Virus genome (UHGV): UHGV-0379469
Strand: one strand, 5' to 3'
Source: a virus
Length of the DNA: 35,405 nucleotides
The notes beneath the pieces are model-generated. The model ran no database searches. It worked only from the letters and a program-made list of their open reading frames with translations, and was not told where the DNA came from. Shown here piece by piece: positions 1-21,284 of this stretch. The translations under genes and the position numbers were made by a program. Positions within the stretch are counted from its first letter, which is position 1. Each line of letters starts with the position of its first letter.

Positions 1-405
1 ACACCACCAACGGGCTGGCTGAAATGTAACGGTGCAGCATTTTCTTCTGAAATGTATCCCAGACTGGCAAGGGCTTATCCCACCAATAAATTACCGGATT
101 TACGCGGTGAATTTATCCGTGGCTGGGATGATGGGCGCGGGGTGGATGCCGGAAGGGGCATCTTAAGCATGCAGGGGTGGTTAACAGGAAGTCATTATCA
201 TAATATTCGGTCATGGGATGCGTGGGATAACACGGTACTGGTGCCAAATGACAAAGGAGGGGATAGTCTGTTGTCGACAGATAACGCCGTCCGGCAAGGT
301 GCAATTAACGGTAGATTTACCAGTCAATACAGAACGGAATCCTCAGATGGGAATGAAAGCCGCCCACGCAATATTGCCTTCAATTATATTGTGAGAACCG
401 CATAA
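1..405 (+). CDS. H: tail fibre protein H, C-terminal variable (receptor-binding) cassette in the expressed orientation; the 5' part of the same gene is 34215..35405 (wraps the window junction)
   Basis: Reading frame is continuous across the end/start junction (...PVPWSSA|TPPTGWLKCNGAAF...); stop TAA 403-405; C-terminus ...RPRNIAFNYIVRTA matches the end of the silent cassette. Confidence 0.85.
   Translation, partial: TPPTGWLKCNGAAFSSEMYPRLARAYPTNKLPDLRGEFIRGWDDGRGVDAGRGILSMQGWLTGSHYHNIRSWDAWDNTVLVPNDKGGDSLLSTDNAVRQGAINGRFTSQYRTESSDGNESRPRNIAFNYIVRTA
16..137. repeat. inverted repeat, left copy (122-bp perfect core; imperfect homology extends about 35349..35405 and 1..152)
   Basis: Bases 16..137 are the exact reverse complement of 1309..1430 (checked base by base; first mismatches at 15 and 138). 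Confidence 0.9.
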
Positions 406-2697: not shown

Positions 2698-5541
2698 TCA
2701 ATCTTTATCGTAAAAACTGCCACGTCCGGCACGGTCGCGTCGTTCCAATTCTGCCCTGACCATTTCACCGACCAGTTTCGCCAGTTCGCGGGGATTCTGT
2801 GTAACAACGTTATGCAGATGAACATGAATTTCACCGCCAAATCCGGAGGCAACAGGCTCCCGGTTACGGGAAGTTGCAGGAGCTGATGCCACTGGCGATC
2901 GTATGGCCTCCGCCACCGGGCGGGAGCTGGCCGCAACAACAGGGACCAGCGCCGGAGGCAGCGGAGCCGGAACCACGGGTGTGATATTAATTGCGGGGGC
3001 AGGCTTACTGACCTGCGCAATCTTCCGCTCCTGCCACTCCCCACGAACAGCAAGTGCGCGGGGCAGGTTCTTAAAGACAATATCGCCGGGGCCAATGCGT
3101 TTTTTCGTCTCATCAACCAGCTTACCTGTGTTATCAGCAATTTTGCTGAGTCTGCGTAGCGTACCGGTATTGCTGTCTGTGAGCGGTTTGTTGTCTTTGG
3201 GCTTATCACCTCCGGTACCATTGCCATTTTCCACAGGCTTCGGCGGATTGATTTTCGCCAGGTCCCCCTGAAGCAAGGCAACCTTGTCCTGAAGAATGGC
3301 CGCACGCTGTGCGTCTTCGATTTTCTTGCGCGCCCTTTCCGCTTCATCCGGAAGCACACCGAGCTTTTCAAGTATCCACGCCAGCGTATCCAGCAACATT
3401 TTTGCAGGTGTCAGAACAAGCTGTAACGCACCGCCAAGAACGTTACCGAATATCTCGCCAGCACTGGTACATTTATCCAGCGTTTCCTTGCTGGACTCCA
3501 TCGGTGACAGCAGCGATTTAAACCAGTTAAACACCTGGCTGATCCCGCTTCCGATTGCGTCAAAAACAGGACCAAACCGTTCAAAGGTTTCGCGCAACGG
3601 GGTCAGCCTTTCCATAATCCCGCTGAACACCCCGGCAAAAAATGCCCTGATGGGATCCCAGTATTTCCAGATGAGAACGGCAGCTCCGGCGAGCGCAGCC
3701 ACAATAAGACCAACCGGACTGAACAACGCCCCGATAGCGCCCCCCAGTAAAGAAACGGAACCCGTCACCATTCCCCACAGCGCAGGCAACACCCTGACGA
3801 CATTCATTGACCGGGTAAGAATGTCAAAACCAAGACGCAGGGTGGCCAGCTTCCCGTAAAGCACCCCAATAACCAGCGACAACGAGCCAATCGTTGCAGT
3901 CATTGCCAGCAACGCACCGCCTGCTATCAGCAGCTGGCGCGTCAGTACCGGATGGGCCTGCGCCAGCGCCGTCACCCTTGATACCACCCGCGTGAGCCAC
4001 TGCGTGACAGAACGCAGCGGACCGTCAATCAGATCTGCAATGCGGATGCGCAACCCTTCCCATGCACTGCCGAGTGATTTCAGATCGCCGTCAAGGTTGT
4101 TGGCCATAACCTTTGCTGTGCGTTCAGCCTCACCGCGCGCGCCTTCAAGTTCTTTTCTCAGTTTGGGTAAGGAACCGTCACCCGCTGCATCAACGAGCGC
4201 CATAAACGATGTGAAAGCCTCTTCTCCGGCAATGTCCTTAAAGAACGATACCCGGTCAACTTCCCCGTATTTGCGGGTGGCTTTATAAAGGTCGGCCAGC
4301 ACATCCTCCATCGGGCGCATTTTGCCCCCGGCATCCGAGACAGACACGCCCAGCTCTTTCAGCGCCTCTGCTGCCGCCTTTGGCGGTGATGCCAGACGAG
4401 CCAGGCTGGCACGCATTGCCGTCCCGGCATCACTTCCCCTGATACCCATATTCGCCAGCACGCCCGCCATCGCTGCGGCCTGCTCCAGCGATATTCCCAG
4501 CTTGCCCGCCACCGGACCTGCATATTTCATGGTTTCGCCCAGTGCGCGAAGGTCAGTGTTGGTACGGGTAAACGCTGCGGTGAGTGTGTCACCGACCCGA
4601 TCCATCTGGTCAGCAGAAAGGCCGAACTGCGTCAGGATATTTGAGCCAATATCTGCCGTCTCGCCGAGATCCATACCGCCAGCCGTTGCCATGCTCAGCA
4701 CGCCGGGAAGCGCAGCCTGAATGGCCTGCGGTGTGAAGCCAGCCATTGCAAGAAATGCCTGTCCACTGGCGGCATCGCCTGCGGTGAACTGCGTTTCAGA
4801 GCCAAGTTTTAACGCCTGCTCACGCAGCGCCTTAAACTGCGGGCTGTTCTGGTCGATTCGCGTCAGTGCCTGAACGCGGGACATCTCTTTGCCGAACCCG
4901 ATCGCAGGCTGCAAAAAACGCCCGGCAGCATAGCCGCCCGCCGCTGCCGCACCAATTGCCAGCGCACCACCTGTTTTCAGTTTTCCCGCTGTTTCCTGCG
5001 CGCGCGAATACCGCTCACGCGCCCGCGTTACACGCGCAAGCGCCTGCCGTTCGCGTTCAAGCTGGTTGTTGTACTGTTCGGTGCGTCTGATGGCCTGCTG
5101 GATGGTGTTATCGCTGCCTGTCAGGGAAATGCCGTGGCGTTTCAGCTCTCCGCCAAGTTCCCGCATTTTCTGAATTTCCCGTGTGCGCGATTCATTCAGG
5201 CGTTCAAGCCGGGTGCTTAACTGCTGCATCAGCTTTTGTTGTTTTTCGCTGAGCACTGTACCCGTGCGTTGTAACTGATTAAGGGCGTTAAGCTGGCGTC
5301 GTGCTTTCAATATGCCAGCATCCGCTTTACTGACAGCGTCACGGGCGCGCTCAAATGAACGCGCCTGACGCTCGAGATTTTTGATCGCCCCCTGCGTTCG
5401 CTGGATGGAGTCACCAAACTGCCCCATCAGGCGGCGGGCGTTTTCGGCAGGCCGGGTCAGCCTGTCAACGGCGCTGAAAGCGACCCGGATGTCAAGAGTC
5501 TTCATTGTCTGCATTCCCGCTGCGAAGTGCCGCCCGCTCAC
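2698..5541 (-). CDS. T: tail tape measure protein T
   Basis: 947-aa ORF, Ala/Gly-rich and coiled-coil N-terminal half with hydrophobic central segments; follows the E/E' chaperone pair; exact start uncertain (alternative Met 27-36 nt downstream). Confidence 0.85.
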   Translation of the reverse strand: MSGRHFAAGMQTMKTLDIRVAFSAVDRLTRPAENARRLMGQFGDSIQRTQGAIKNLERQARSFERARDAVSKADAGILKARRQLNALNQLQRTGTVLSEKQQKLMQQLSTRLERLNESRTREIQKMRELGGELKRHGISLTGSDNTIQQAIRRTEQYNNQLERERQALARVTRARERYSRAQETAGKLKTGGALAIGAAAAGGYAAGRFLQPAIGFGKEMSRVQALTRIDQNSPQFKALREQALKLGSETQFTAGDAASGQAFLAMAGFTPQAIQAALPGVLSMATAGGMDLGETADIGSNILTQFGLSADQMDRVGDTLTAAFTRTNTDLRALGETMKYAGPVAGKLGISLEQAAAMAGVLANMGIRGSDAGTAMRASLARLASPPKAAAEALKELGVSVSDAGGKMRPMEDVLADLYKATRKYGEVDRVSFFKDIAGEEAFTSFMALVDAAGDGSLPKLRKELEGARGEAERTAKVMANNLDGDLKSLGSAWEGLRIRIADLIDGPLRSVTQWLTRVVSRVTALAQAHPVLTRQLLIAGGALLAMTATIGSLSLVIGVLYGKLATLRLGFDILTRSMNVVRVLPALWGMVTGSVSLLGGAIGALFSPVGLIVAALAGAAVLIWKYWDPIRAFFAGVFSGIMERLTPLRETFERFGPVFDAIGSGISQVFNWFKSLLSPMESSKETLDKCTSAGEIFGNVLGGALQLVLTPAKMLLDTLAWILEKLGVLPDEAERARKKIEDAQRAAILQDKVALLQGDLAKINPPKPVENGNGTGGDKPKDNKPLTDSNTGTLRRLSKIADNTGKLVDETKKRIGPGDIVFKNLPRALAVRGEWQERKIAQVSKPAPAINITPVVPAPLPPALVPVVAASSRPVAEAIRSPVASAPATSRNREPVASGFGGEIHVHLHNVVTQNPRELAKLVGEMVRAELERRDRAGRGSFYDKD

Positions 5542-9049: not shown

Positions 9050-9118
9050 GCAACTTAGATATATTAGCTCAGACTTAAGCTGGCAAGTTTACAGTATAGA
9101 ATTAAACATAAACGACGG

Positions 9119-9140
9119 TCCGCTCCGTGCCAGAAGCGGA
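9119..9140. terminator. weak hairpin between convergent D and cargo gene
   Basis: GTCCGCT..AGCGGAC stem followed by TTTG. Confidence 0.25.
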
Positions 9141-9169
9141 CTTTGTCATCCCCATGTAAGGTTGATTGC

Positions 9170-10192
9170 TTAATACGCATTTAATTTAAATTTGTATTTG
9201 CTTTCTATGTAATGGATAAATTCAATTATGCTTTTTTCTATCGCGTCTAATATATGAATATATCCATCCCGATTTAAGGTCCTATCCAACTCAAAATGAT
9301 GAACTATCCCATGTCTATATTGTATGATTTCAGAAATTCGATTCTCAAGGTAATCAACTGATTTTCCAATTCTTTTTTTCTTATAAAGAATCGCTCTCAC
9401 ATCTATATCTAGCCACTCTTTATATGCTTTGTTTAGGAGGGTTAAGTTTTGAAAAGTGTAATTTCTTGCAATAACACTTTCTATTGAAATATTTCCTTTC
9501 TCTATCTCAAGCAGAATATCAAAATCAACTTTTTGCTTATACGATGTTCTTTTTGCTATTGCGAAAGGATCGTACTTTATAAGTATTTGAAAAGCTCTAG
9601 AGAAAAAATATTCAAACATAGCAACCGCAAAAGGTACTAATCCATTATATATAACTCTACTGGGATCCATACATTGCATATCATCAAAGTATTCGGATAA
9701 GCCGCCATCTTCCGGCAGGTTTAATTTAATAGAAGGTTCAGGTAAGGCATGTTTAACAGCGGAAATCTCATGATGAACATGATTAAATATTGAAGAAATG
9801 CCACGACTGATCGGACTACTAGAATCCCCCCATAGAGGAGCGTATCTATTTTTCCCATAATCACCTATAAGTGTTCCACCAAAAAGACTCCTTGCGCCTT
9901 TTAGAACATCATTAAGCATTTTTACATCATGCCAACTAGCGCTAGATAAATTACGCACATGCAATGCCCATTTATTACCAGATATGTGTAGTTCGTCATT
10001 TGAAACAGGATATATATCAGCCGAAACTCCATCTGTAGATTTGAAGTCCGTATCATCAAACCAAGAGTAATTTAACGTTCCTTGGGGCCATTCCCACAAA
10101 TGTTTACACCTTTTAAAACCTAAATTTTCAAGATAATTTTTAAGTTCGTTTCTAGTTGCTTTTTTAGGGTACAGCGTTATATCTCTTCCCAT
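9170..10192 (-). CDS. hypothetical protein, AT-rich cargo gene; candidate anti-phage defence or abortive-infection protein
   Basis: 340-aa ORF with AGGTG RBS; much more AT-rich than the flanking phage genes; convergent with D and divergent from ogr; C-terminal RHGIVHH fits the Rx4-6H HEPN motif; no family recognised. Confidence 0.6.
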   Translation of the reverse strand: MGRDITLYPKKATRNELKNYLENLGFKRCKHLWEWPQGTLNYSWFDDTDFKSTDGVSADIYPVSNDELHISGNKWALHVRNLSSASWHDVKMLNDVLKGARSLFGGTLIGDYGKNRYAPLWGDSSSPISRGISSIFNHVHHEISAVKHALPEPSIKLNLPEDGGLSEYFDDMQCMDPSRVIYNGLVPFAVAMFEYFFSRAFQILIKYDPFAIAKRTSYKQKVDFDILLEIEKGNISIESVIARNYTFQNLTLLNKAYKEWLDIDVRAILYKKKRIGKSVDYLENRISEIIQYRHGIVHHFELDRTLNRDGYIHILDAIEKSIIEFIHYIESKYKFKLNAY

Positions 10193-10383
10193 GCTTTATT
10201 CACCTGACATACAATATTTTACATTTTAACTATCATGAACGTATGAATTTTTACATTGGATGTATGGAAGTTCAACAGCTATTGAAAGTTCAATTTTCAC
10301 TCTTCGCACAGAGCGAGCTGTTAGTTGGAATTAGGGATCGTACAATCTAGAATAGCGGCAGCACCACGTTAAGGGAGGTCGCT

Positions 10384-10644: not shown

Positions 10645-10834
10645 CAGGCAGAATTGCCGGAGTAACAAAAAAGCGATAGATTACGCGCGGGTGCCTTTCG
10701 GCTGATGGTCGGAGGGAATACCCGAAGGCCAGATGTGGAAAGGCCCCGGAAAACACTTTTGTTTAACCGAGGCCCTAACCGTCTACCCTAAGCAAGTGAA
10801 AGGTTAGCGCCTCTCCGGAAAAGGAGCAAGTGCT

Positions 10835-10975
10835 ATGTCGCAAAAATCGCTTACGGCCATCACGTTCTGCGTGACGGTAATCCTCATCATCTGGATGTTA
10901 CACGGTTCGCTGTGCGAAATACGGATGAGCTTCTGGGGAGCGGAGTTTGCGGCGTTCTTACAGTGTAAGCAGTAA
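10835..10975 (+). CDS. hok: Hok/Gef-family type I toxin (small membrane peptide)
   Basis: 46-aa ORF MSQKSLTAITFCVTVILIIWMLHGSLCEIRMSFWGAEFAAFLQCKQ: N-terminal TM helix plus SLCE(I/L)R...E(V/L)AAF signature of Hok peptides; not in the ORF track because it is short; flanked by strong hairpins. Confidence 0.7.
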   Translation: MSQKSLTAITFCVTVILIIWMLHGSLCEIRMSFWGAEFAAFLQCKQ

Positions 10976-10985
10976 GGAAACCGCG

Positions 10986-11005
10986 ACGGGGGAGCAATCC
11001 CCCGT
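10986..11005 (+). other. 8-bp stem / GCAA-loop hairpin in the hok 3' region
   Basis: ACGGGGGA GCAA TCCCCCGT. Confidence 0.4.
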
Positions 11006-11110
11006 CAATCGGTTGCCAGGGTAAGGCCGAAGTGGCACCCAAATTTAAATTGAGGCCCACCAGTAAGAGTGGTGGGCTTAACACTTGTTTAAATTTGAAA
11101 GGAACTCTTT

Positions 11111-11407
11111 ATGAGTGAAATGGTATTTTGTCGCGGATGCGGCAAGGAAATACATAAAGATGCCACATCCTGCCCCAATTGTGGAGCACCTCAAAGAACA
11201 GCAAGTTCAAAAAGCAGAATGACAGCCGCACTACTGGCTTTCTTTTTAGGTGGTCTTGGTGCACACAAATTTTATTTAGGTAAAGTGGGGCAAGGATTCC
11301 TTTACCTTATTTTTTGCTGGACATTCATTCCGGCAATCGTGGCATTTATTGAGTTTTTTATCTATCTATGCACCTCTGATGAAGATTTCGCCCGCAAATA
11401 TGGCTGA
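11111..11407 (+). CDS. zinc-ribbon + TM2-domain small membrane protein (cargo)
   Basis: N-terminal CxxC...CPNC zinc ribbon followed by two hydrophobic helices (LLAFFLGGLGAHKFYLG...) typical of TM2-domain proteins. Confidence 0.7.
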   Translation: MSEMVFCRGCGKEIHKDATSCPNCGAPQRTASSKSRMTAALLAFFLGGLGAHKFYLGKVGQGFLYLIFCWTFIPAIVAFIEFFIYLCTSDEDFARKYG

Positions 11408-11542
11408 TGCCTAACGGACGAATCAGAATGACAAACCCGCAGCGTAAAAATTGCGGGTTTTCTTTTTGTCACCCTCACACGTGAGGGCATCATACTTAAG
11501 ACAAAGCCCGCAATATTGCGAGCTTACCCTACATCTCGAAAA

Positions 11543-11563: not shown

Positions 11564-11809
11564 CTCTGACATAAATCCTTTTATATCAATTAATTAAATC
11601 ATCATTTTTTTCATCAACAAGGATTTTTAACCCTTTTTCAGTCTCTGACAATCTAAGGCTCCTTTATTAACAAACGCCCATTTGCAAACTGCTGTTTAAT
11701 CTGAAAAAACATTCATAATCATACAGATAACAACATAACCATTTAGACGGGCAATACTGAAAAATTGTTATTCAGTATCGCCCTTTAAGCCGTTTCAGGC
11801 TATATAAAA

Positions 11810-12829
11810 TTAATCCCCCGTGGACACTGCGTGGACACTCACGCCACCTTTCAGCGGATTAAGGGCCACCGCATCCTGCAGGTAATCCGGTGCAAAATGT
11901 GCATATGCCATTGTTTGCTGAATGGTTGCGTGGCCAAGAATCTTCTGAAGCGCAATAATGTTTCCTCCGTTCATCACAAAATGGCTGGCGAACGTATGCC
12001 GCAGCACATGTGCAGCCTGGCCTTTTGGCAAATCGGGCTTAACTCTTTTCAGCGCCAAGCAGAATTCCCGGTACTTCACCTCAAACAAGCCGCCTGTTTC
12101 TCTGGTTTTGATCGCCTCACAAACTGCCTGCGAAATTGGCACTGTTCTCTTTCGGCCATTTTTGGTTTCAAGAAACGTTACACGGTTATGAACTATCTGT
12201 TCACCACGAAGCTTACAGGCTTCACTCCAGCGCGCCCCCGTGCTTAAACACAAAAGCGCAACACGCCAGTAATCGCCCTCCAGTGTATCGAGCAATAACG
12301 CCACTTCCTTCTGGGACAGGAAAGCCATTTCTCGTGGAGATACATAAAGAATAGAAATTCCCCTTACCGGATGTTCTGCATCCCAGAGGCCTATTTTCTT
12401 CAGTACGGTAAACATTCCGGATAACCGATTCATGTATCTGTTAGCAGATGACGGTTTCAATCCATCAGCTATCTTTTGAGAACGCCACGCGATAATTTTT
12501 AGCTTATCAAGATCCACAGCCTGCATATCAGCGCCAAGCTCATTGATTATGTTGCGCAGTTGTTTTCGGTCTTCTTCCGCCTTACGCCTGTGCTGGCCGT
12601 GATACATCCACCACAACTCAAGCAAATCATTTAGCGTTCGACGATCACGGTAGCCCTGTATATATTCCCGCTTTTCAGCGTTCGCCATGATGTAGCGTTC
12701 AGTGGCCACCGCTACCGATTTTTTGTCAAATACCTTACGCACGCGCTTTCCCTTGCGTCCGTTCGGCCTGATGTCCAGCAAATAACGACCATCTTCGAGC
12801 TTCTTAATCGACATTGCGAAGCCCTCCAA
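11810..12829 (-). CDS. int: tyrosine integrase (P2 Int-like)
   Basis: 339-aa ORF; C-terminal catalytic region ...HVLRHTFASHF...LGHATIQQTMAYAHFAPDY with the R..H..R..Y signature. Confidence 0.9.
   Translation of the reverse strand: MEGFAMSIKKLEDGRYLLDIRPNGRKGKRVRKVFDKKSVAVATERYIMANAEKREYIQGYRDRRTLNDLLELWWMYHGQHRRKAEEDRKQLRNIINELGADMQAVDLDKLKIIAWRSQKIADGLKPSSANRYMNRLSGMFTVLKKIGLWDAEHPVRGISILYVSPREMAFLSQKEVALLLDTLEGDYWRVALLCLSTGARWSEACKLRGEQIVHNRVTFLETKNGRKRTVPISQAVCEAIKTRETGGLFEVKYREFCLALKRVKPDLPKGQAAHVLRHTFASHFVMNGGNIIALQKILGHATIQQTMAYAHFAPDYLQDAVALNPLKGGVSVHAVSTGD
11820..11838 (+). repeat. putative integrase arm-type binding site (dimeric direct repeat), overlaps int 3' end
   Basis: GTGGACActgcGTGGACAc; encodes ...VSVHAVST of Int. 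Confidence 0.5.
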
Positions 12830-13344: not shown

Positions 13345-13632
13345 ATGAGCGAATCAGAGCTTGGGGGCTTCATTCAGGTAGCACCATATCCACTTGAAGC
13401 GGTGCCATATCAACTATTCGCCAAGATGATCGGCCGCAAGGAATCCACAGTCAGAACCATGATTGACGCAGCAAAGCTACCGACAATTGACTTTGTGAAA
13501 CCAGGTTCAGTAAAGACGCGTGCATCAGAAAACTGGGTATATCTGCCAGCATTTAACGAAGGCATGCGCAAAGCGTTTTTTGAGCAACCGAAAGAACGCC
13601 GCGATGCATGGTTGTTGTGGCTGGGGCTTTAG
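13345..13632 (+). CDS. cox: Cox-like excisionase / transcriptional regulator
   Basis: ...PYQLFAKMIGRKESTVRTMIDAAKLP...WVYLPAFN...WLLWLGL matches P2 Cox as recalled; first gene of the early operon, divergent from C. Confidence 0.75.
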   Translation: MSESELGGFIQVAPYPLEAVPYQLFAKMIGRKESTVRTMIDAAKLPTIDFVKPGSVKTRASENWVYLPAFNEGMRKAFFEQPKERRDAWLLWLGL

Positions 13633-16396: not shown

Positions 16397-16518
16397 GAAA
16401 CCAGAACATGCACACACAAAAAAACCGCTTGCCATGCCGCAATCGGTCAGGTTACATTTCCGTTGCACCTCATAAAACGGGTGCCGGGATTCTCAACCCG
16501 ATACAGAGCAAAGCGCAT

Positions 16519-16540
16519 AACCGCGCCAGCGGTTTTTTTG
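16519..16540 (+). terminator. intrinsic terminator-like hairpin with T7 tract
   Basis: aaCCGCgccaGCGGttttttt, about 125 nt after the preceding stop. Confidence 0.45.
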
Positions 16541-16718
16541 TGCGTACTGTATTGCCACGTCTTTTTCGCGTCAGAATTATGGCGGGGCGTACGGGGCCGA
16601 CTTCGGTCGGGCCGGATTCTTTGCTCTCCGGTGTTGAGAACCCTGTACGTCTCGCCACCCCGAGATTCTCAACTCTGGATGGTGAGCTATTTCTATCACC
16701 GAGCAAAGAGGCCACACC

Positions 16719-17021: not shown

Positions 17022-17411
17022 ATGATTGACGCTCATGACTTCACAAGATGGGTGCGCACACAGGACACCCGTCTGGCTCCCGTTCTTCAGGGATTATTTG
17101 ATCTCTACATCCGTGGTCGTGACAACAGAGCACGCACCACAAAACCGGAGAATGCAGACACCCTTTATTTCACAGTAGACGACTGCTACCGCGTGGACTT
17201 CACACCACACGGGCTGGCGTTGCACTGCCTGACACCACACGGAGAATCACTGCTGGCGTATTACGACTCCCCGGCCTCCGTATTTGCGGCAATGCTGGCG
17301 CATCGCACTGCTGGCGGGTGTGCCTCGCTGAGTGAATACACCGCTGAATTTAACCGCCTTTCTGCCCTCTTCTCGCAGGAGTGGCAGCGCGTGACGGGAT
17401 ACCAGCCATGA
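17022..17411 (+). CDS. hypothetical protein preceding the replication gene
   Basis: 129-aa ORF; its stop overlaps the A start (ATGA). Confidence 0.5.
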   Translation: MIDAHDFTRWVRTQDTRLAPVLQGLFDLYIRGRDNRARTTKPENADTLYFTVDDCYRVDFTPHGLALHCLTPHGESLLAYYDSPASVFAAMLAHRTAGGCASLSEYTAEFNRLSALFSQEWQRVTGYQP

Positions 17412-20248
17412 ATGAGTTTGCATGGAGCTGGAATGAACCACGGCCAGCCATTGATCCGGCCAGATTTACGGAGCACAGGCAGGAAACTGAAACCGACCTG
17501 CAACGCGCCATCCGTTACTACCTTGAGGCAGACAAAAAGGCTCTGGAAGAACAGGAAGCGAAGGAGGAAGCCTTTTTCGCACAATCCACCGTGGGTAAAA
17601 AACTCATGGCATCCCTTGAGGAAGCCGGACAGCGTGAAAAGCTGGCACAAAGCATCATCAGCAAGCGTCAGGCAACAGAACAAGACCCGGTGGCCCGTGC
17701 TTTTGCCACACTGAAGGTGCTTCCCGTTTATCTGCGTGAACCTCTGAGCCGCCACCTCTCTTTCCTGCGCAAAAAACAGGAAGCCGATCGCCAGAAAGGC
17801 AAAAAGAGCTGGCAGGCTGAACGCTACGCGCGCGGAACCCTGCGCAAAATATTCGAACGCCTGGACCGCACCGACCACCGCTGGCTGACACCGGGTTATC
17901 GCTCCCTTGCCGGACGCGAACGCCTGGATGATTTGCTTTACCTGCCGCAGCTCAACAAGCACCAGATACAGACGCTGGCCACCATGACGGCGGCGATGTT
18001 CAGCAGCACCTTCGAAAAACTCTGCGATGGCTTTGGCGCGACCGATGGTGAGCTGACCATGGAGGTGGCACTGAAGGCGTATCAGATGCTGGCCCGCATG
18101 GCGTTACACCTGCACGCCATGCCTCCACATTATGACGCACTGACAACAGACAAAGACCGCAAGAACGAACCGGACACGGAACTGCTGCCGGGCGCAATCC
18201 TCCGCCTGACCTGTGCGGAATGGTGGAAACGCAAACTGTGGCTGTTACGTTGCGAGTGGCGGGAAGAACAACTCCGCGCCGCCTGTCTGGTTTCCAGAAA
18301 AACATCGCCCTATCTGAGCCAGGACGCGTTAAGCGAGTTTCGCGCACAGCGCGAGAAAACACGCGATTTCCTGAAAAGTTTCATGCTGGAAAACGAAGAC
18401 GGGTTCACGATTGATCTCGAGACGGTGTATTACGCGGGAGTAAGTAACCCGGTCCACCGTAAAGCAGAAATGATGGCCACCATGAAGGGGCTGGAACTTC
18501 TGGCCGAAGCCCGTGGCGACAGAGCGGTGTTTCTGACTGTCACCTGCCCGTCAAAATACCACGCCACAACAGAGAACGGTCATCCGAATCCCAAATGGAA
18601 CGGGGCCACCATGCGCGACTCCAGCGATTACCTGGTTAACACGTTTTTTGCGGCGGTCCGCAAAAAACTGAACCGCGATGGCCTGCGCTGGTATGGCATC
18701 CGCACGGTGGAGCCTCACCATGACGGCACCGTGCACTGGCATATGATGGTCTTTGCACATCCGGACGAGATTGAAACCATCGTGTCCCATGTCTGCGATA
18801 TTGCCATTCAGGAAGACCGCCACGAGCTGGGCGATGACATAACTCCGCGTTTTAAGGCTGAGTACGTAGACGGCTCAAAAGGCACGCCAACCAGCTACAT
18901 CGCCACCTACATCGGAAAGAACCTGGACAGCCGCGCCGTGGATGGCATCGACCCGAAAACGGGCAAGCCACGCGTTGACCACGAAACCGGAAAATCAATG
19001 GCAGAGAGCGTGGAACGCGCCATCGGCTGGGCGCGCCTTCACCGGGTCCGCCAGTTCCAGTTCTTTGGCATTCCCTCTCGTCAGGTATGGCGTGAACTCC
19101 GCCGCCTTGCCAGCCAGATGGCACGCAACCCGGAAGGCCCACAACGGCTGAAGGATGATGCAATGGATGCGGTACTCGCTGCCGCTGATGCCGGGTGTTT
19201 TGCCACCTACATTGAGAAACAGGGCGGCGTACTTGTTCCACGCAAAGACTACCTGATTCGCACCGCCTACGACCTCGCAGATGAGCTGAACGATTACGGC
19301 GAACAGAGCGTACAGATTTACGGGATCTGGTCACCACTCATCGGGGAGTCTTCCCGTGTGTGCACACATCCGGATAACTGGAAGCTGGTAAGACGTAAAC
19401 CGGAAGCGGAAGACAGCGCCCGCGAAAATGGTTTTGACCTTCAGGGCGGCCCTGCCGCCCCTTGGACTCGTGGCAATAACTGTCCCCGTGTACAGGAAAC
19501 AGACAACAACGGGACAGAACAGCCGGAAGAACGGCCAGCACCGTGGCCGCAGCTTCCTGACGGCGTTGACGTGAACGAATGGGTGCGCTCACTGAAACGG
19601 CACGAACGCCGGGCGCTGATGCGTTCGCTGCGTGACAAACAGGCAAAAAACAGCAGTGATGAAATGCAGAACTGGACACAGAGCCGCAAACAGCCACAGC
19701 CTTTGCCTGATAACCACGAATTACTCGCTAAAGAATGGCGGGAGTCTGCTGAATCTCTCGGCCTGCATATCGGTGAACAGCAGATGCAGCACCTGTTACG
19801 GGGCGGCAGTCTGTACGTTGACGGCAGCATCATTGCACCGCAGGGATTTGAAATTGTACGCAAACCGGATACCCGCCCGGACAGCCGAATCACGCAGCTC
19901 TGGCAACGCCTGAGCCGTAACCACGGCGTAAGCAGCACGGAGATCCGCCATAACCCAGTCGCCAGCTATCTGGAACAACTAGGGGCATCAGACCCTGAAG
20001 CCGCCGCACGCCTGGCATCCACACTTCAGCAAGACCAGAACACCATGAAAACACCCGTTACCGTACTTTCTGACATGCTGCGCGCCATCCGCGACGCAGA
20101 GCACGAACAGAGAATCAGTGAAACAACTGAACGCGCCCGCCGCAAAGCAGACCTGCTGCGGGGTGACCTGACCAGTGGAAACAAAAAACAGACAGAAACG
20201 GGATTCACAAATCCCGTAAATGAGCAAAAAACGCGCCGCGAAATATGA
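17408..20248 (+). CDS. A: replication initiation protein A (HUH rolling-circle endonuclease)
   Basis: HUH motif ...GTVHWHMMVFAH... and catalytic Tyr motif ...TSYIATYIGKN...; about 946 aa, longer than P2 gpA as I recall it (761 aa). Confidence 0.85.
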   Translation: MNEFAWSWNEPRPAIDPARFTEHRQETETDLQRAIRYYLEADKKALEEQEAKEEAFFAQSTVGKKLMASLEEAGQREKLAQSIISKRQATEQDPVARAFATLKVLPVYLREPLSRHLSFLRKKQEADRQKGKKSWQAERYARGTLRKIFERLDRTDHRWLTPGYRSLAGRERLDDLLYLPQLNKHQIQTLATMTAAMFSSTFEKLCDGFGATDGELTMEVALKAYQMLARMALHLHAMPPHYDALTTDKDRKNEPDTELLPGAILRLTCAEWWKRKLWLLRCEWREEQLRAACLVSRKTSPYLSQDALSEFRAQREKTRDFLKSFMLENEDGFTIDLETVYYAGVSNPVHRKAEMMATMKGLELLAEARGDRAVFLTVTCPSKYHATTENGHPNPKWNGATMRDSSDYLVNTFFAAVRKKLNRDGLRWYGIRTVEPHHDGTVHWHMMVFAHPDEIETIVSHVCDIAIQEDRHELGDDITPRFKAEYVDGSKGTPTSYIATYIGKNLDSRAVDGIDPKTGKPRVDHETGKSMAESVERAIGWARLHRVRQFQFFGIPSRQVWRELRRLASQMARNPEGPQRLKDDAMDAVLAAADAGCFATYIEKQGGVLVPRKDYLIRTAYDLADELNDYGEQSVQIYGIWSPLIGESSRVCTHPDNWKLVRRKPEAEDSARENGFDLQGGPAAPWTRGNNCPRVQETDNNGTEQPEERPAPWPQLPDGVDVNEWVRSLKRHERRALMRSLRDKQAKNSSDEMQNWTQSRKQPQPLPDNHELLAKEWRESAESLGLHIGEQQMQHLLRGGSLYVDGSIIAPQGFEIVRKPDTRPDSRITQLWQRLSRNHGVSSTEIRHNPVASYLEQLGASDPEAAARLASTLQQDQNTMKTPVTVLSDMLRAIRDAEHEQRISETTERARRKADLLRGDLTSGNKKQTETGFTNPVNEQKTRREI

Positions 20249-20324: not shown

Positions 20325-21284
20325 ATGAAAATTTGTATCGACGACGGCTCCACCAACATCAAGCTGGCATGGACTGAGAACGGCGAACGCCGCAACGCCA
20401 TCAGCCCGAACAGCTTCAAGTCGGAATGGTCTGCGCCGTTCGGTGGCACGCAGCCCGCGAACTACATGCTTGATAGCGTGCGCTATGGTTTTGATCCGGT
20501 CAGCGATCGCTTTGTCCAGACGACTGACACGCAATATCAGTACAGTGATGTGAATGTCATTGCCATTCATCACGCGCTGGTCAAATCAGGCATCACGCCA
20601 CAGGAGGTGGATGTGGTTGTCACCCTGCCACTGAGCGAGTATTTCGACACAAACGCACAGCCGGACATGGCCAACATCAACCGCAAAAAAGCGAACGTTA
20701 TGCGCCCGGTGGAATACCAGAACGGCGAAGCATTCACTATCCGTAATGTACGGGTTATGCCTGAATCCATTCCGGCTGGCTTTAAGGCACTGGCTGACAT
20801 GAGTCCGTTTGAATCCCTGCTGATTGTGGATTTAGGCGGAACCACGCTGGATGTGGCAAAGGTTCAGGGACAACTGGCAGGTATCAGCCAGGTGTTTTGC
20901 GATCCACACGTAGGCGTTTCCCTGATGGCCGATGCCGTACTGTCGGTGATGGCCACTAACGGTATGCGTACCAGTCACCACATCGCCAATACCATTATTG
21001 AGCACCGTCACGATGAAGCCTGGCTGCGCCAGCACATTCACAATGACGCGCATTACAACAGCCTGATGGCGGTTATTCGTGAAAAGGAGGAGACACTGAA
21101 ACAACGAGTGATCCGCGCGCTGGCGGGTTTTTCCGGTTACGGGCGGGTGATGGTTGTCGGTGGAGGGGCGGAGATTGTGGCACCCGCTATCCGCGAAGCC
21201 TGCGGAGTTAATGCGACTTTCATCGCGGACGGGGTGCCACAATTTGCTCTGGTTAATGGGCTGTACGCAATGAACAAGGAGTAA
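20325..21284 (+). CDS. parM: ParM/StbA actin-like partition ATPase
   Basis: MKICIDDGSTNIKLAW... N-terminus and ...DLGGTTLD..., ...VMVVGGGAE..., ...LVNGLYAM motifs aligning with plasmid R1 ParM as recalled. Confidence 0.8.
   Translation: MKICIDDGSTNIKLAWTENGERRNAISPNSFKSEWSAPFGGTQPANYMLDSVRYGFDPVSDRFVQTTDTQYQYSDVNVIAIHHALVKSGITPQEVDVVVTLPLSEYFDTNAQPDMANINRKKANVMRPVEYQNGEAFTIRNVRVMPESIPAGFKALADMSPFESLLIVDLGGTTLDVAKVQGQLAGISQVFCDPHVGVSLMADAVLSVMATNGMRTSHHIANTIIEHRHDEAWLRQHIHNDAHYNSLMAVIREKEETLKQRVIRALAGFSGYGRVMVVGGGAEIVAPAIREACGVNATFIADGVPQFALVNGLYAMNKE

What the first reader, a model, noticed from the sequence alone, without database searches (positions are those of the whole stretch)
10650..11100. 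Unannotated Hok-family type I toxin with hairpin-rich flanks between ogr and attP
A 46-aa ORF (10835..10975) missed by the ORF track encodes a textbook Hok/Gef-like peptide (TM helix plus SLCEIR...EFAAF). The ~190-nt leader and the 3' region contain several strong hairpins (for example 10986..11005 and 11054..11078), consistent with the folded hok mRNA and an antisense Sok-like RNA. This would be a post-segregational killing or abortive-infection module, which fits the plasmid-like features of this replicon.
Basis: partly seen in the sequence, partly recalled or inferred. Interest (0 to 1): 0.55.

Follow-up and report, generated by a model that had tools for sequence, protein, structure and literature searches.

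The report
Known prophage hok/sok toxin–antitoxin locus
The small gene after ogr is a real Hok-family membrane toxin with the folded mRNA and antisense-RNA features of a hok/sok toxin–antitoxin module. It is a common locus, already annotated and catalogued in E. coli P2-like and lambdoid prophages, so the finding is correct but ordinary.

Summary
The 46-aa ORF at 10835..10975 is real. It passes Pfam HOK_GEF (30.1 bits, cut-off 22) and matches PHROG 251 over its full length (E 2.5e-23). RefSeq already names the identical protein WP_000078920.1 'Hok/Gef family protein'. The whole module (10650..11040) occurs in 1742 of 5426 complete E. coli genomes and in P88-like P2 phages directly after ogr. 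A variant identical at 45 of 46 residues (cluster 72) was among 42 homologues reported toxic in a 2026 preprint.

The RNA anatomy of hok mRNA is recognisable:
- a 5' tac box pairs with a 3' fbi box, and conservation stops exactly at the fbi end;
- tac can pair alternatively with ucb;
- ucb forms a hairpin with a GAGG box;
- the 3' stem-loop (10985..11006) shows compensatory changes;
- an antisense promoter and terminator hairpin sit where R1 has Sok.

The Rfam sok model matches at 51.9 bits, below its threshold of 59.

- The gene is unannotated only in the first-stage ORF track.
- Hairpin 11054..11078 lies outside the module, in an inserted TM2-gene cassette.
- This Hok cluster has no conserved mok reading frame, the one departure from the R1 paradigm.

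Sok expression and the module's biological role were not tested here. Verdict: already known, low interest.

The parts
10654..10682 (+). Putative hok promoter: -35 TTGCCG (10654..10659), 17-nt spacer, -10 TAGATT (10677..10682)
   Evidence: Read from the sequence. The -10 to +1 spacing is the same as for R1 TATGAT (PMC9841398). All 13 aligned sequences keep TANNNT at this position. The consensus scan did not flag it. Inferred.
10689..11040 (+). Predicted full-length hok mRNA (352 nt)
   Evidence: The Rfam sok model starts at 10689. In R100 the same model starts at about hok +1. Similarity to all other hok loci of this cluster ends at 11040. MFE -155.4 kcal/mol, z -5.6.
10689..10703 (+). tac box (5' end, GGGUGCCUUUCGGCU); pairs with fbi or, alternatively, with ucb
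   Evidence: MFE folds; 96 % of cells paired with fbi across 14 homologues; the tac/ucb stem is chosen by RNAalifold, with one compensatory pair.
10733..10807 (+). Non-conserved 24-codon leader ORF (ATG at +45); not a mok equivalent
   Evidence: Its end point varies widely among 95 related modules, and only 11 overlap the hok start.
10742..10749 (+). ucb (GGCCCCGG), anti-SD-like box
   Evidence: Pairs with 10767..10774 with a C-A mismatch. From the R1 sequence and the C74/A106 opposition described in PMC9841398, I infer the same geometry in R1. GGCCCC is present in 97 % of 66 distinct modules.
10767..10774 (+). SD-like box CCGAGGCC, homologous to the R1 mok SD but followed by no start codon
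   Evidence: Model-mediated alignment with R100. The R1 mok AUG position aligns to UAC (10785..10787). GAGG is present in 95 % of distinct modules.
10736..10794 (-). Predicted Sok-like antisense RNA, about 57 nt: 18-nt 5' tail, long hairpin (10776..10740), then UUUCC
   Evidence: Reverse-strand sequence; fold -20.6 to -23.2 kcal/mol, z -2.4 to -2.8. Position is homologous to R1 Sok (my recollection of the R1 Sok sequence, checked against the R100 sequence). Ends not mapped; inferred.
10801..10829 (-). Putative Sok promoter: -35 TTGCTC (10829..10824), 17-nt spacer, -10 TAACCT (10806..10801)
   Evidence: Aligns through the Rfam model to R100 GCGCAA / AGGATA, that is TTGCGC-17-TATCCT. AGGTTAGCGCCTC is invariant in 14 homologues. 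Not detected by the consensus scan. Inferred.
10823..10826 (+). hok Shine-Dalgarno GGAG; predicted to pair partly with the upstream CUCUCC stretch (10811..10816)
   Evidence: Sequence; MFE structures.
10835..10975 (+). hok CDS, 46 aa
   Evidence: Identical to RefSeq WP_000078920.1. The start region AUGUCGCAA pairs with UUGCGGCGU (10947..10955) in every one of 14 homologues.
10985..11006 (+). 3' stem-loop, expected to be the protective 3' end of the processed (truncated) hok mRNA
   Evidence: z -6.4. All cells paired, 4 of 9 pairs with compensatory changes. The R1 equivalent was shown to stabilise the truncated mRNA (PMC9841398).
11025..11040 (+). fbi box (fold-back inhibition), pairs with tac
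   Evidence: Conservation with all homologues stops at its last base.
11054..11078 (+). GC hairpin flanked by the AAATTTAAA / TTTAAATTT inverted repeat. It lies outside the hok module, at the 5' edge of the inserted TM2 cassette, and is a possible hok terminator
   Evidence: In P88-type loci a different terminator follows fbi. That ancestral terminator is found at 11436..11468, after the TM2 gene. The U-tract is poor and the terminator scan did not flag it.

Best explanation
Window 10654..11040 is a complete hok/sok-type type I toxin-antitoxin module of the prophage-borne 46-aa Hok cluster. That cluster is PHROG 251, cluster 72 of Escalera-Maurer et al., and RefSeq WP_000078920.1.

**Proposed mechanism** (sequence features are shown; the dynamics are inferred from plasmid R1):
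1. A weak constitutive promoter makes a 352-nt mRNA. Its 5' tac box pairs with the 3' fbi box.
2. In this closed form, ucb holds the GAGG box in a hairpin, and the hok start codon is paired with the codons for EFAAF. The RNA is therefore neither translated nor bound by antisense RNA.
3. Slow 3' trimming back to the stable stem-loop 10985..11006 removes fbi. tac then re-pairs with ucb, and the leader opens.
4. A short, unstable antisense RNA (about 10794 to 10736, - strand) pairs with the opened leader and triggers decay.
5. When antisense synthesis stops (loss of the element, prophage induction, or transcription shut-off by an infecting phage), Hok is made, inserts in the inner membrane and kills or lyses the cell.

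**Difference from R1:** no conserved mok reading frame couples translation into hok. How the ribosome gains access to the hok start is therefore open.
For: **Protein**
- Pfam HOK_GEF above threshold.
- PHROG 251 full length, E 2.5e-23.
- C12, T14, L26-C27-E28 and E37 have the same spacing as the conserved residues C16, T18, L30-C31-E32 and E41 of the Hok logo.
- The N-terminal half is hydrophobic, and dN/dS is below 1.
- The identical protein is annotated Hok/Gef in RefSeq.
- A 45/46-identical variant (72_1621) and the Stx-phage variant (72_1589) were tested. Only three other sequences were non-toxic.

**RNA**
- The Rfam sok model matches 10689..10848 over its full length, E 1e-10. The R100 control scores 88.9 bits with the same end points.
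- tac/fbi closure appears in the MFE fold, z -5.6, and refolding to tac/ucb appears in the trimmed RNA.
- Across 14 homologues 94.9 % of cells are paired, against 36-52 % when partners are slid. The 3' stem has 4 compensatory pairs.
- Conservation ends exactly at fbi.
- The Sok promoter and hairpin lie at the homologous positions.

**Distribution**
- 1742 of 5426 complete E. coli genomes.
- Present in P88-like phages after ogr, in lambdoid prophages next to lom or gpJ, and in a few plasmids.
Against: - The Rfam hit is below the family's gathering score (51.9 against 59). Nothing is reported there at the curated threshold.
- The NCBIfam Hok and HokA models are far below their cut-offs.
- The sigma-70 consensus scan found no promoter on either strand. 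Both promoters rest on homology alone.
- No mok exists. The R1 mok AUG position aligns to UAC. In 35 of 66 distinct related modules no upstream ORF in another frame reaches the hok SD, and where one does, its start varies.
- R1 work shows that mok translation up to the hok SD is required for Hok synthesis. This step of the mechanism therefore cannot be transferred.
- No transcript data and no toxicity test exist for this exact sequence in its native context.
- The tac/fbi helix shows only one-sided changes, with no double compensations.
Confidence: 0.85

Rival explanations
1. It is a decaying or silenced hok locus. The peptide is still toxic if forced, but in its native context it is never translated, because the mok coupling frame has been lost. 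On this view it resembles several chromosomal hok copies of E. coli K-12 that are regarded as inactive.
For: - No conserved mok; the leader ORF is truncated at variable places.
- The hok AUG is sequestered in a 9-bp invariant helix in both predicted conformations.
- R1 needs mok translation.
- One relative is an obvious pseudogene, with a stop at codon 2.
- The preprint's discussion notes that earlier reports suggested chromosomal Hok homologues are mostly inactive in K-12.
Against: - Purifying selection acts on the peptide: dN/dS 0 to 0.53, including 3-4 synonymous and no non-synonymous differences from two near relatives.
- The ORF is intact in all but one of 95 modules, while the leader ORF drifts.
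- tac, ucb, GAGG, the Sok promoter complement, the 3' stem and fbi are all strongly conserved, with compensatory changes.
- The module has spread into at least four different prophage contexts. That is hard to explain for a dead module.
Confidence: 0.12
2. The ORF and hairpins are unrelated features: a chance small ORF lying among terminators of ogr and the neighbouring cassette.
For: - Hairpin 11054..11078 does belong to the neighbouring TM2 cassette rather than to hok.
- The scan reads the 10984..11007 hairpin as a terminator on the minus strand.
Against: - Family matches at E 3.7e-07 and 2.5e-23.
- A full-length covariance-model match at E 1e-10.
- A 5'-3' long-range pairing conserved in 14 homologues.
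- The module moves as a unit of fixed ends between unrelated phage contexts.
Confidence: 0.01

Closest known systems
hok/mok/sok (parB) of plasmids R1/R100
   Same: - A small Hok/Gef membrane toxin.
- A -10 box at the same distance from a G-rich +1.
- tac/fbi 5'-3' closure and an alternative tac/ucb stem.
- A ucb/GAGG hairpin with what I infer to be the same C-A mismatch.
- The hok start paired to the distal coding region.
- A stable 3' stem that would stop 3' trimming.
- An antisense promoter (TTGC.C-17-TA.CCT) and antisense hairpin at homologous positions.
- A hairpin just downstream of fbi.

Sources.
   Different: - 46 aa against 52 aa.
- The leader is 146 nt against 173 nt.
- There is no mok. 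R100 has ATG +116 and 70 codons, whereas here that position reads UAC and no upstream frame is conserved.
- Rfam score is 51.9 against 88.9 bits.
- It is carried on an integrating P2-like phage rather than a conjugative plasmid.
Hok cluster 72 of Escalera-Maurer et al. (bioRxiv 10.1101/2025.08.07.668861) = PHROG 251 'MokW-like host killing' = RefSeq WP_000078920.1 / WP_000078916.1 / WP_000078907.1
   Same: - This is the same gene. Phage P88 gp52 and the UTI89 and F163 prophages encode the identical peptide.
- The tested 72_1621 differs by V15A only.
- It is a high-abundance cluster and is reported toxic on overexpression.
   Different: Nothing at the protein level. In this window a TM2-gene cassette separates the module from its usual terminator.
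hokW-sokW of Stx2 prophage Sp5 (Takada et al. 2021, PMC8621323)
   Same: - A prophage-borne hok/sok type I TA.
- It was shown to be toxic and to be repressed by its antisense RNA.
- It was shown to be activated on prophage induction and to raise phage release about two-fold.
- This is the best experimental guide to what a phage gains from such a module.
   Different: - It is a different paralogue. HokW is 51 aa and starts MKQQKAM (primer YO-357). It belongs to the HokD-type cluster 35.
- The 'MokW-like' label on the present gene in phage records is only a family name.
- Stx phages carry a relative of the present gene separately, next to lom.

Membership tests
Hok/Gef toxin family (Pfam PF01848; PHROG 251) | Profile match above the curated threshold | tested here: met
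   Pfam HOK_GEF 30.1 bits against 22, residues 7-44 on profile positions 5-42 of 42. PHROG 251 82.8 bits, residues 1-46.
Hok/Gef toxin family (Pfam PF01848; PHROG 251) | About 50 aa, hydrophobic N-terminal helix, conserved C..T and L-C-E ... E residues | tested here: met
   46 aa. Mean Kyte-Doolittle hydropathy (15-residue windows) is above 2 over the windows starting at residues 5-13. C12, T14, L26, C27, E28 and E37 have the same spacing as logo positions C16, T18, L30, C31, E32 and E41.
Hok/Gef toxin family (Pfam PF01848; PHROG 251) | Toxic when expressed | not testable with these tools
   Not tested for this sequence. The 45/46-identical 72_1621 and the variant 72_1589 were in a 45-homologue panel in which only 19_179, 60_1482 and 69_1540 were non-toxic.
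NCBIfam HokA equivalog / Hok subfamily (NF007290, NF007279) | Score above the curated cut-off | tested here: not met
   35.8 against 89 bits, and 23.6 against 73 bits. It is not an orthologue of HokA or of the R1-type Hok subfamily.
hok mRNA / sok RNA family (Rfam RF01794) | Covariance-model score at or above the gathering score | tested here: inconclusive
   51.9 bits against 59, E 1.1e-10, model positions 1-157 of 157, + strand 10689..10848. No hit at the gathering threshold. The R100 control scores 88.9 and a sister locus 42.8.
R1-type hok/mok/sok regulatory architecture | tac/fbi long-range 5'-3' pairing | tested here: met
   15 pairs in the MFE fold. 96.1 % of cells are paired in 14 homologues, with one-sided changes only. 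The module boundary coincides with the fbi end.
R1-type hok/mok/sok regulatory architecture | Alternative tac/ucb stem, and a ucb/SD-box hairpin | tested here: met
   The trimmed RNA refolds tac onto +47..59. RNAalifold picks this stem, and one pair changes CG to UA. The ucb/GAGG hairpin has 85.7 % of cells paired. These are in silico results only.
R1-type hok/mok/sok regulatory architecture | Stable 3' stem-loop upstream of fbi that ends the processed mRNA | tested here: met
   10985..11006, -19.7 kcal/mol. All cells paired, 4 of 9 pairs compensatory. Processing itself was not tested.
R1-type hok/mok/sok regulatory architecture | Short antisense Sok RNA with its own promoter inside the leader | tested here: inconclusive
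   Homologous -35/-10 boxes and a terminator-like hairpin are present, and their complement is invariant. The consensus scan finds no promoter, and no transcript data are available.
R1-type hok/mok/sok regulatory architecture | mok reading frame that starts after the SD box and is translated into the hok start region | tested here: not met
   The R1 mok AUG aligns to UAC. The mok-like frame is open from 10792 to 10968 but has no ATG, GTG or TTG before the hok ATG, and none of the near-cognate starts CTG, ATT, ATC or ATA. No conserved upstream ORF is found in 66 distinct modules, whereas the R100 control recovers mok.
hokW-sokW of Sp5 | Same gene as the experimentally studied HokW | tested here: not met
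   HokW is 51 aa and starts MKQQKAM. It falls in cluster 35, not cluster 72.

The most novel reading that the evidence does not exclude
The 46-aa prophage Hok cluster, including this locus, may be regulated without mok-type translational coupling. The conserved but start-codon-less GAGG box that Sok covers could act as a ribosome standby or loading site, as in tisB/istR-1. Alternatively, Sok could act purely by triggering decay. Either way, this would be a second regulatory design within the hok family. The published Hok survey I read explicitly left Mok unanalysed.
Probability: 0.2. Interest if true: 0.4.

Novelty: already known. Interest (0 to 1): 0.15.

Why it matters
It matters little as a discovery. 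The gene is annotated in RefSeq, has its own PHROG, sits in a catalogued Hok cluster with toxicity data, and occurs in about a third of complete E. coli genomes.

It is useful as annotation. It marks the ogr-attP end of this P2-like phage as a moron slot that carries a type I toxin-antitoxin module. By analogy with hokW-sokW and R1 hok/sok, the module may stabilise the prophage, speed lysis on induction, or exclude other phages.

The only point of wider interest is that this abundant Hok cluster lacks a conserved mok frame. If confirmed experimentally, that would show the textbook hok/mok/sok coupling is not universal in the family.

Tried and rejected
I replaced it with degenerate DNA-pattern scans.
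- **The genome-contig scan** gave only 5 species hits, three of them in non-enteric genomes that I suspect are E. coli contamination. It adds little.
- **The sigma-70/terminator consensus scan** found no promoter on either strand. It found only the 10984..11007 hairpin, read on the minus strand.
- **PADLOC** has no model matching Hok, the TM2 protein or the HEPN-like ORF.
- **Equating the locus with hokW-sokW** was rejected, because the primers and the length show a different paralogue.
- **Looking for mok** failed in four ways: canonical and near-cognate starts in both alternative frames; all leader ORFs in 14 homologues; the ATG +45 ORF in 95 modules; and any upstream ORF reaching the hok SD. 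None is conserved.
- **A text search** for the peptide or its WP accessions found nothing in main texts. The peptide's near-identical variant was found only in a supplement.
- **The large protein-database, structure-prediction and fold-search tools** were not used, because the family assignment was already unambiguous.

Full report

The + strand carries ATG 10835 to TAA 10975. It encodes MSQKSLTAITFCVTVILIIWMLHGSLCEIRMSFWGAEFAAFLQCKQ, 46 aa, with GGAG at 10823..10826.

- The peptide passes Pfam HOK_GEF (30.1 bits, gathering score 22, E 3.7e-07).
- It matches PHROG 251 'MokW-like host killing' over its whole length (82.8 bits, E 2.5e-23).
- NCBIfam's HokA and Hok-subfamily models score far below their cut-offs. 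It is therefore a distinct branch, not a HokA or R1-Hok orthologue.
- The residues reported as conserved in more than 80 % of 1264 Hok peptides (C16, T18, L30-C31-E32, E41 of the logo) are present with the same spacing (C12, T14, L26-C27-E28, E37).

The integrase is 11810..12829 on the - strand. Homology to an integrated copy ends at about 11627. 'Between ogr and attP' is therefore right.

**2. Is it unannotated or new?**

No.

- A 100 % identical stretch in E. coli F163 carries a CDS at exactly these coordinates, WP_000078920.1 'Hok/Gef family protein'. UTI89 has the same protein.
- The module 10650..11040 is found at 80 % coverage or more in 1742 of 5426 complete E. coli genomes, and is annotated as Hok/Gef in the records listed.
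- In P88-like P2 phages (Xuanwuvirus) it lies after ogr and is labelled 'MokW-like host killing'.
- Relatives of 74-87 % DNA identity lie next to lom in Stx phages, between gpJ and the tail-fibre gene in other lambdoid prophages, beside ykgM, and on a few plasmids.
- A 2026 preprint that catalogues 32,532 Hok loci places this peptide in its high-abundance cluster 72. Its test panel included 72_1621, which differs from the window peptide by V15A only, and the Stx-phage variant 72_1589. Of 45 homologues, only three other sequences were non-toxic.
- The same preprint reports that hok is enriched in prophages.

**3. Anatomy of the module**

*Ends of the module.* Alignment of 13 loci shows conservation from the -35 region to GGCACCC at 11040, and none beyond.

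*Promoter and start.* The Rfam sok model (RF01794) matches 10689..10848 on the + strand over all 157 model positions. The score is 51.9 bits (E 1.1e-10), below the gathering score of 59. On R100, whose hok CDS is identical to that of R1, the same model scores 88.9 bits and runs from about hok +1 to the hok AUG. The model therefore describes the sense leader and can be used to transfer R1 coordinates. R1's -10 box TATGAT ends 7 nt before +1 (sequence). Here TAGATT (10677..10682) has the same spacing to G10689, with TTGCCG 17 nt upstream. All 13 aligned sequences keep TANNNT.

*Closed form.* The 352-nt RNA 10689..11040 folds at -155.4 kcal/mol (z -5.6). Its first 15 nt pair with its last 16, which is the tac/fbi closure.

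*Open form.* Trimmed to 11006, the 5' end re-pairs with +47..59, which is the tac/ucb stem. RNAalifold selects this stem for the 14-sequence alignment, with one CG-to-UA compensation.

*ucb/GAGG hairpin.* GGCCCCGG (10742..10749) pairs with CCGAGGCC (10767..10774) with a central C-A mismatch. From the R1 sequence and the C74/A106 opposition described for R1, I infer that the ucb/mok-SD pairing in R1 has the same geometry.

*Covariation.* On an explicit structure of tac/fbi, ucb/GAGG and the 3' stem, 94.9 % of cells pair, against 36-52 % when partners are slid. The 3' stem 10985..11006 has 4 of 9 pairs with compensatory changes. The tac/fbi helix varies on one side only. Because the structure was derived from this sequence, the slid control is generous.

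*hok start.* AUGUCGCAA pairs with UUGCGGCGU (10947..10955, the codons for FAAF) in all 14 sequences. R100 has the analogous CAUGAAA/UUUCAUG complementarity.

*Sok.* On the minus strand, TTGCTC (10829..10824), 17 nt, TAACCT (10806..10801) align through the model to R100's TTGCGC-17-TATCCT. That this is the Sok promoter is my recollection of the R1 literature. The transcript from about 10794 would have an 18-nt free 5' tail, then a long hairpin and UUUCC, about 57 nt in all. The complement AGGTTAGCGCCTC is invariant. The generic consensus scan flags neither promoter. Both rest on homology.

**4. What is not there: mok**

In R1, mok (AUG at 116-118, 70 codons) must be translated at least up to the hok SD for Hok to be made.

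- Here the homologous position reads UAC.
- The mok-like frame is open from 10792 to 10968. It contains no ATG, GTG or TTG before the hok ATG, and none of the near-cognate starts CTG, ATT, ATC or ATA.
- The only sizeable leader ORF (ATG 10733, 24 codons) stops 27 nt before the hok ATG.
- In 95 related modules (66 distinct) gathered from the fetched loci and an IMG/VR pattern scan, the Hok ORF is intact at 45-47 aa in all but one. The ATG +45 ORF, by contrast, ends at scattered positions and overlaps the hok start in only 11.
- In 35 of the 66 distinct modules no upstream ORF in another frame reaches the hok SD. Where one does, its start varies. The same script recovers mok in R100.
- dN/dS for Hok is 0 to 0.53.

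The toxin is therefore under selection and a mok frame is not. The sample is biased towards close relatives, because the pattern required two exact 10-mers. The preprint states that Mok was not analysed.

**5. The second hairpin and the neighbours**

In P88-type loci, fbi is followed after about 24 nt by CCCGCAGCG..CTGCGGGTTTTCTTTTT. In the window that terminator is at 11436..11468, after a TM2-domain/zinc-ribbon gene at 11111..11407 (Pfam TM2 68.6 bits).

A cassette of about 380 bp (11041 to about 11420) has therefore been inserted exactly at the fbi end. Hairpin 11054..11078 and its AAATTTAAA/TTTAAATTT flanks are the cassette's left edge. It occupies the position of a hok terminator, as the hairpin 8 nt after fbi does in R100. 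Its U-tract is poor, however, and it is not homologous to the hok module.

**6. Likely function**

*Shown:* a conserved, selected Hok gene embedded in a conserved hok-type RNA architecture.

*Inferred from R1:* the tac/fbi to tac/ucb switch, 3' trimming, and Sok-triggered decay.

*Biological role:* not tested. There are three precedents:
- prophage or plasmid stabilisation by killing cells that lose the element;
- earlier lysis and about two-fold more phage release on induction, as shown for hokW-sokW in Sp5;
- partial exclusion of T4 by R1 hok/sok, as cited.

hokW itself is a different paralogue (51 aa, MKQQKAM..., cluster 35). The element has both an integrase with attP and a ParM-type segregation gene. 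A stabilising role is therefore compatible with either lifestyle.

**7. Verdict**

The locus is an already known, widely annotated member of the Hok family. The one feature that departs from the textbook system is the absence of a conserved mok frame in this Hok cluster. That is a modest lead, not a discovery.

Noticed in passing
window 9064..10347 (ORF 9170..10192, - strand): This 1.28-kb segment between gpD and ogr is absent from the otherwise 98-99 % identical F163 prophage. It holds a 340-aa ORF with only a sub-threshold RiboL-PSP-HEPN Pfam hit (21.9 against 28.4 bits) and no PADLOC, PHROG or NCBIfam match. It may be an uncharacterised defence moron.
   Followed up: partly
window 11041..11420 (gene 11111..11407, + strand): A TM2-domain protein with an N-terminal zinc ribbon (Pfam TM2 68.6 bits; phrog_10292, unknown function) lies in a cassette of about 380 bp. 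The cassette is inserted exactly between the hok fbi end and the ancestral terminator (11436..11468). Its left edge is the 11054..11078 hairpin, flanked by a 9-bp AT-rich inverted repeat.
   Followed up: partly
window 20325..21284 (+ strand): A ParM/StbA actin-like plasmid segregation protein (Pfam StbA_N 273 bits, ParM_N 230 bits) lies next to the P2 gpA replication gene (17381..20248). The phage also has Cox (13345..13632) and an integrase.
   Followed up: no
window 16465..16662 (+ strand): Rfam hits above the gathering score to isrK (16465..16539, 62.8 bits) and C4 antisense RNA (16575..16662, 78.5 bits). This is a P1/P7-type antisense immunity element inside the early region of a P2-like phage.
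   Followed up: no
window about 11600..11627: Homology to the integrated F163 prophage (next to flk) stops at 11627. The attP crossover lies about here, roughly 590 nt downstream of the hok module.
   Followed up: partly
L005 484.. (AZ162 prophage at serS) and L018 (E. albertii): In these two lineages the leader ATG at +45 opens a 61- or 79-codon frame that overlaps hok in the mok-like frame. In the window and most other lineages, indels in the loop of the ucb hairpin shift it into short frames. This may be a remnant of an ancestral mok, or chance.
   Followed up: partly
L036 4430..4586 and 5154..5310: One IMG/VR contig carries two copies of this hok module about 720 bp apart.
   Followed up: no
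L014, L015, L017 (genome-contig hits): Exact matches to this E. coli-type hok module occur in assemblies labelled Xanthomonas pisi, a Planococcaceae MAG and Vagococcus sp. I suspect these are contaminating enterobacterial contigs rather than real hosts.
   Followed up: no
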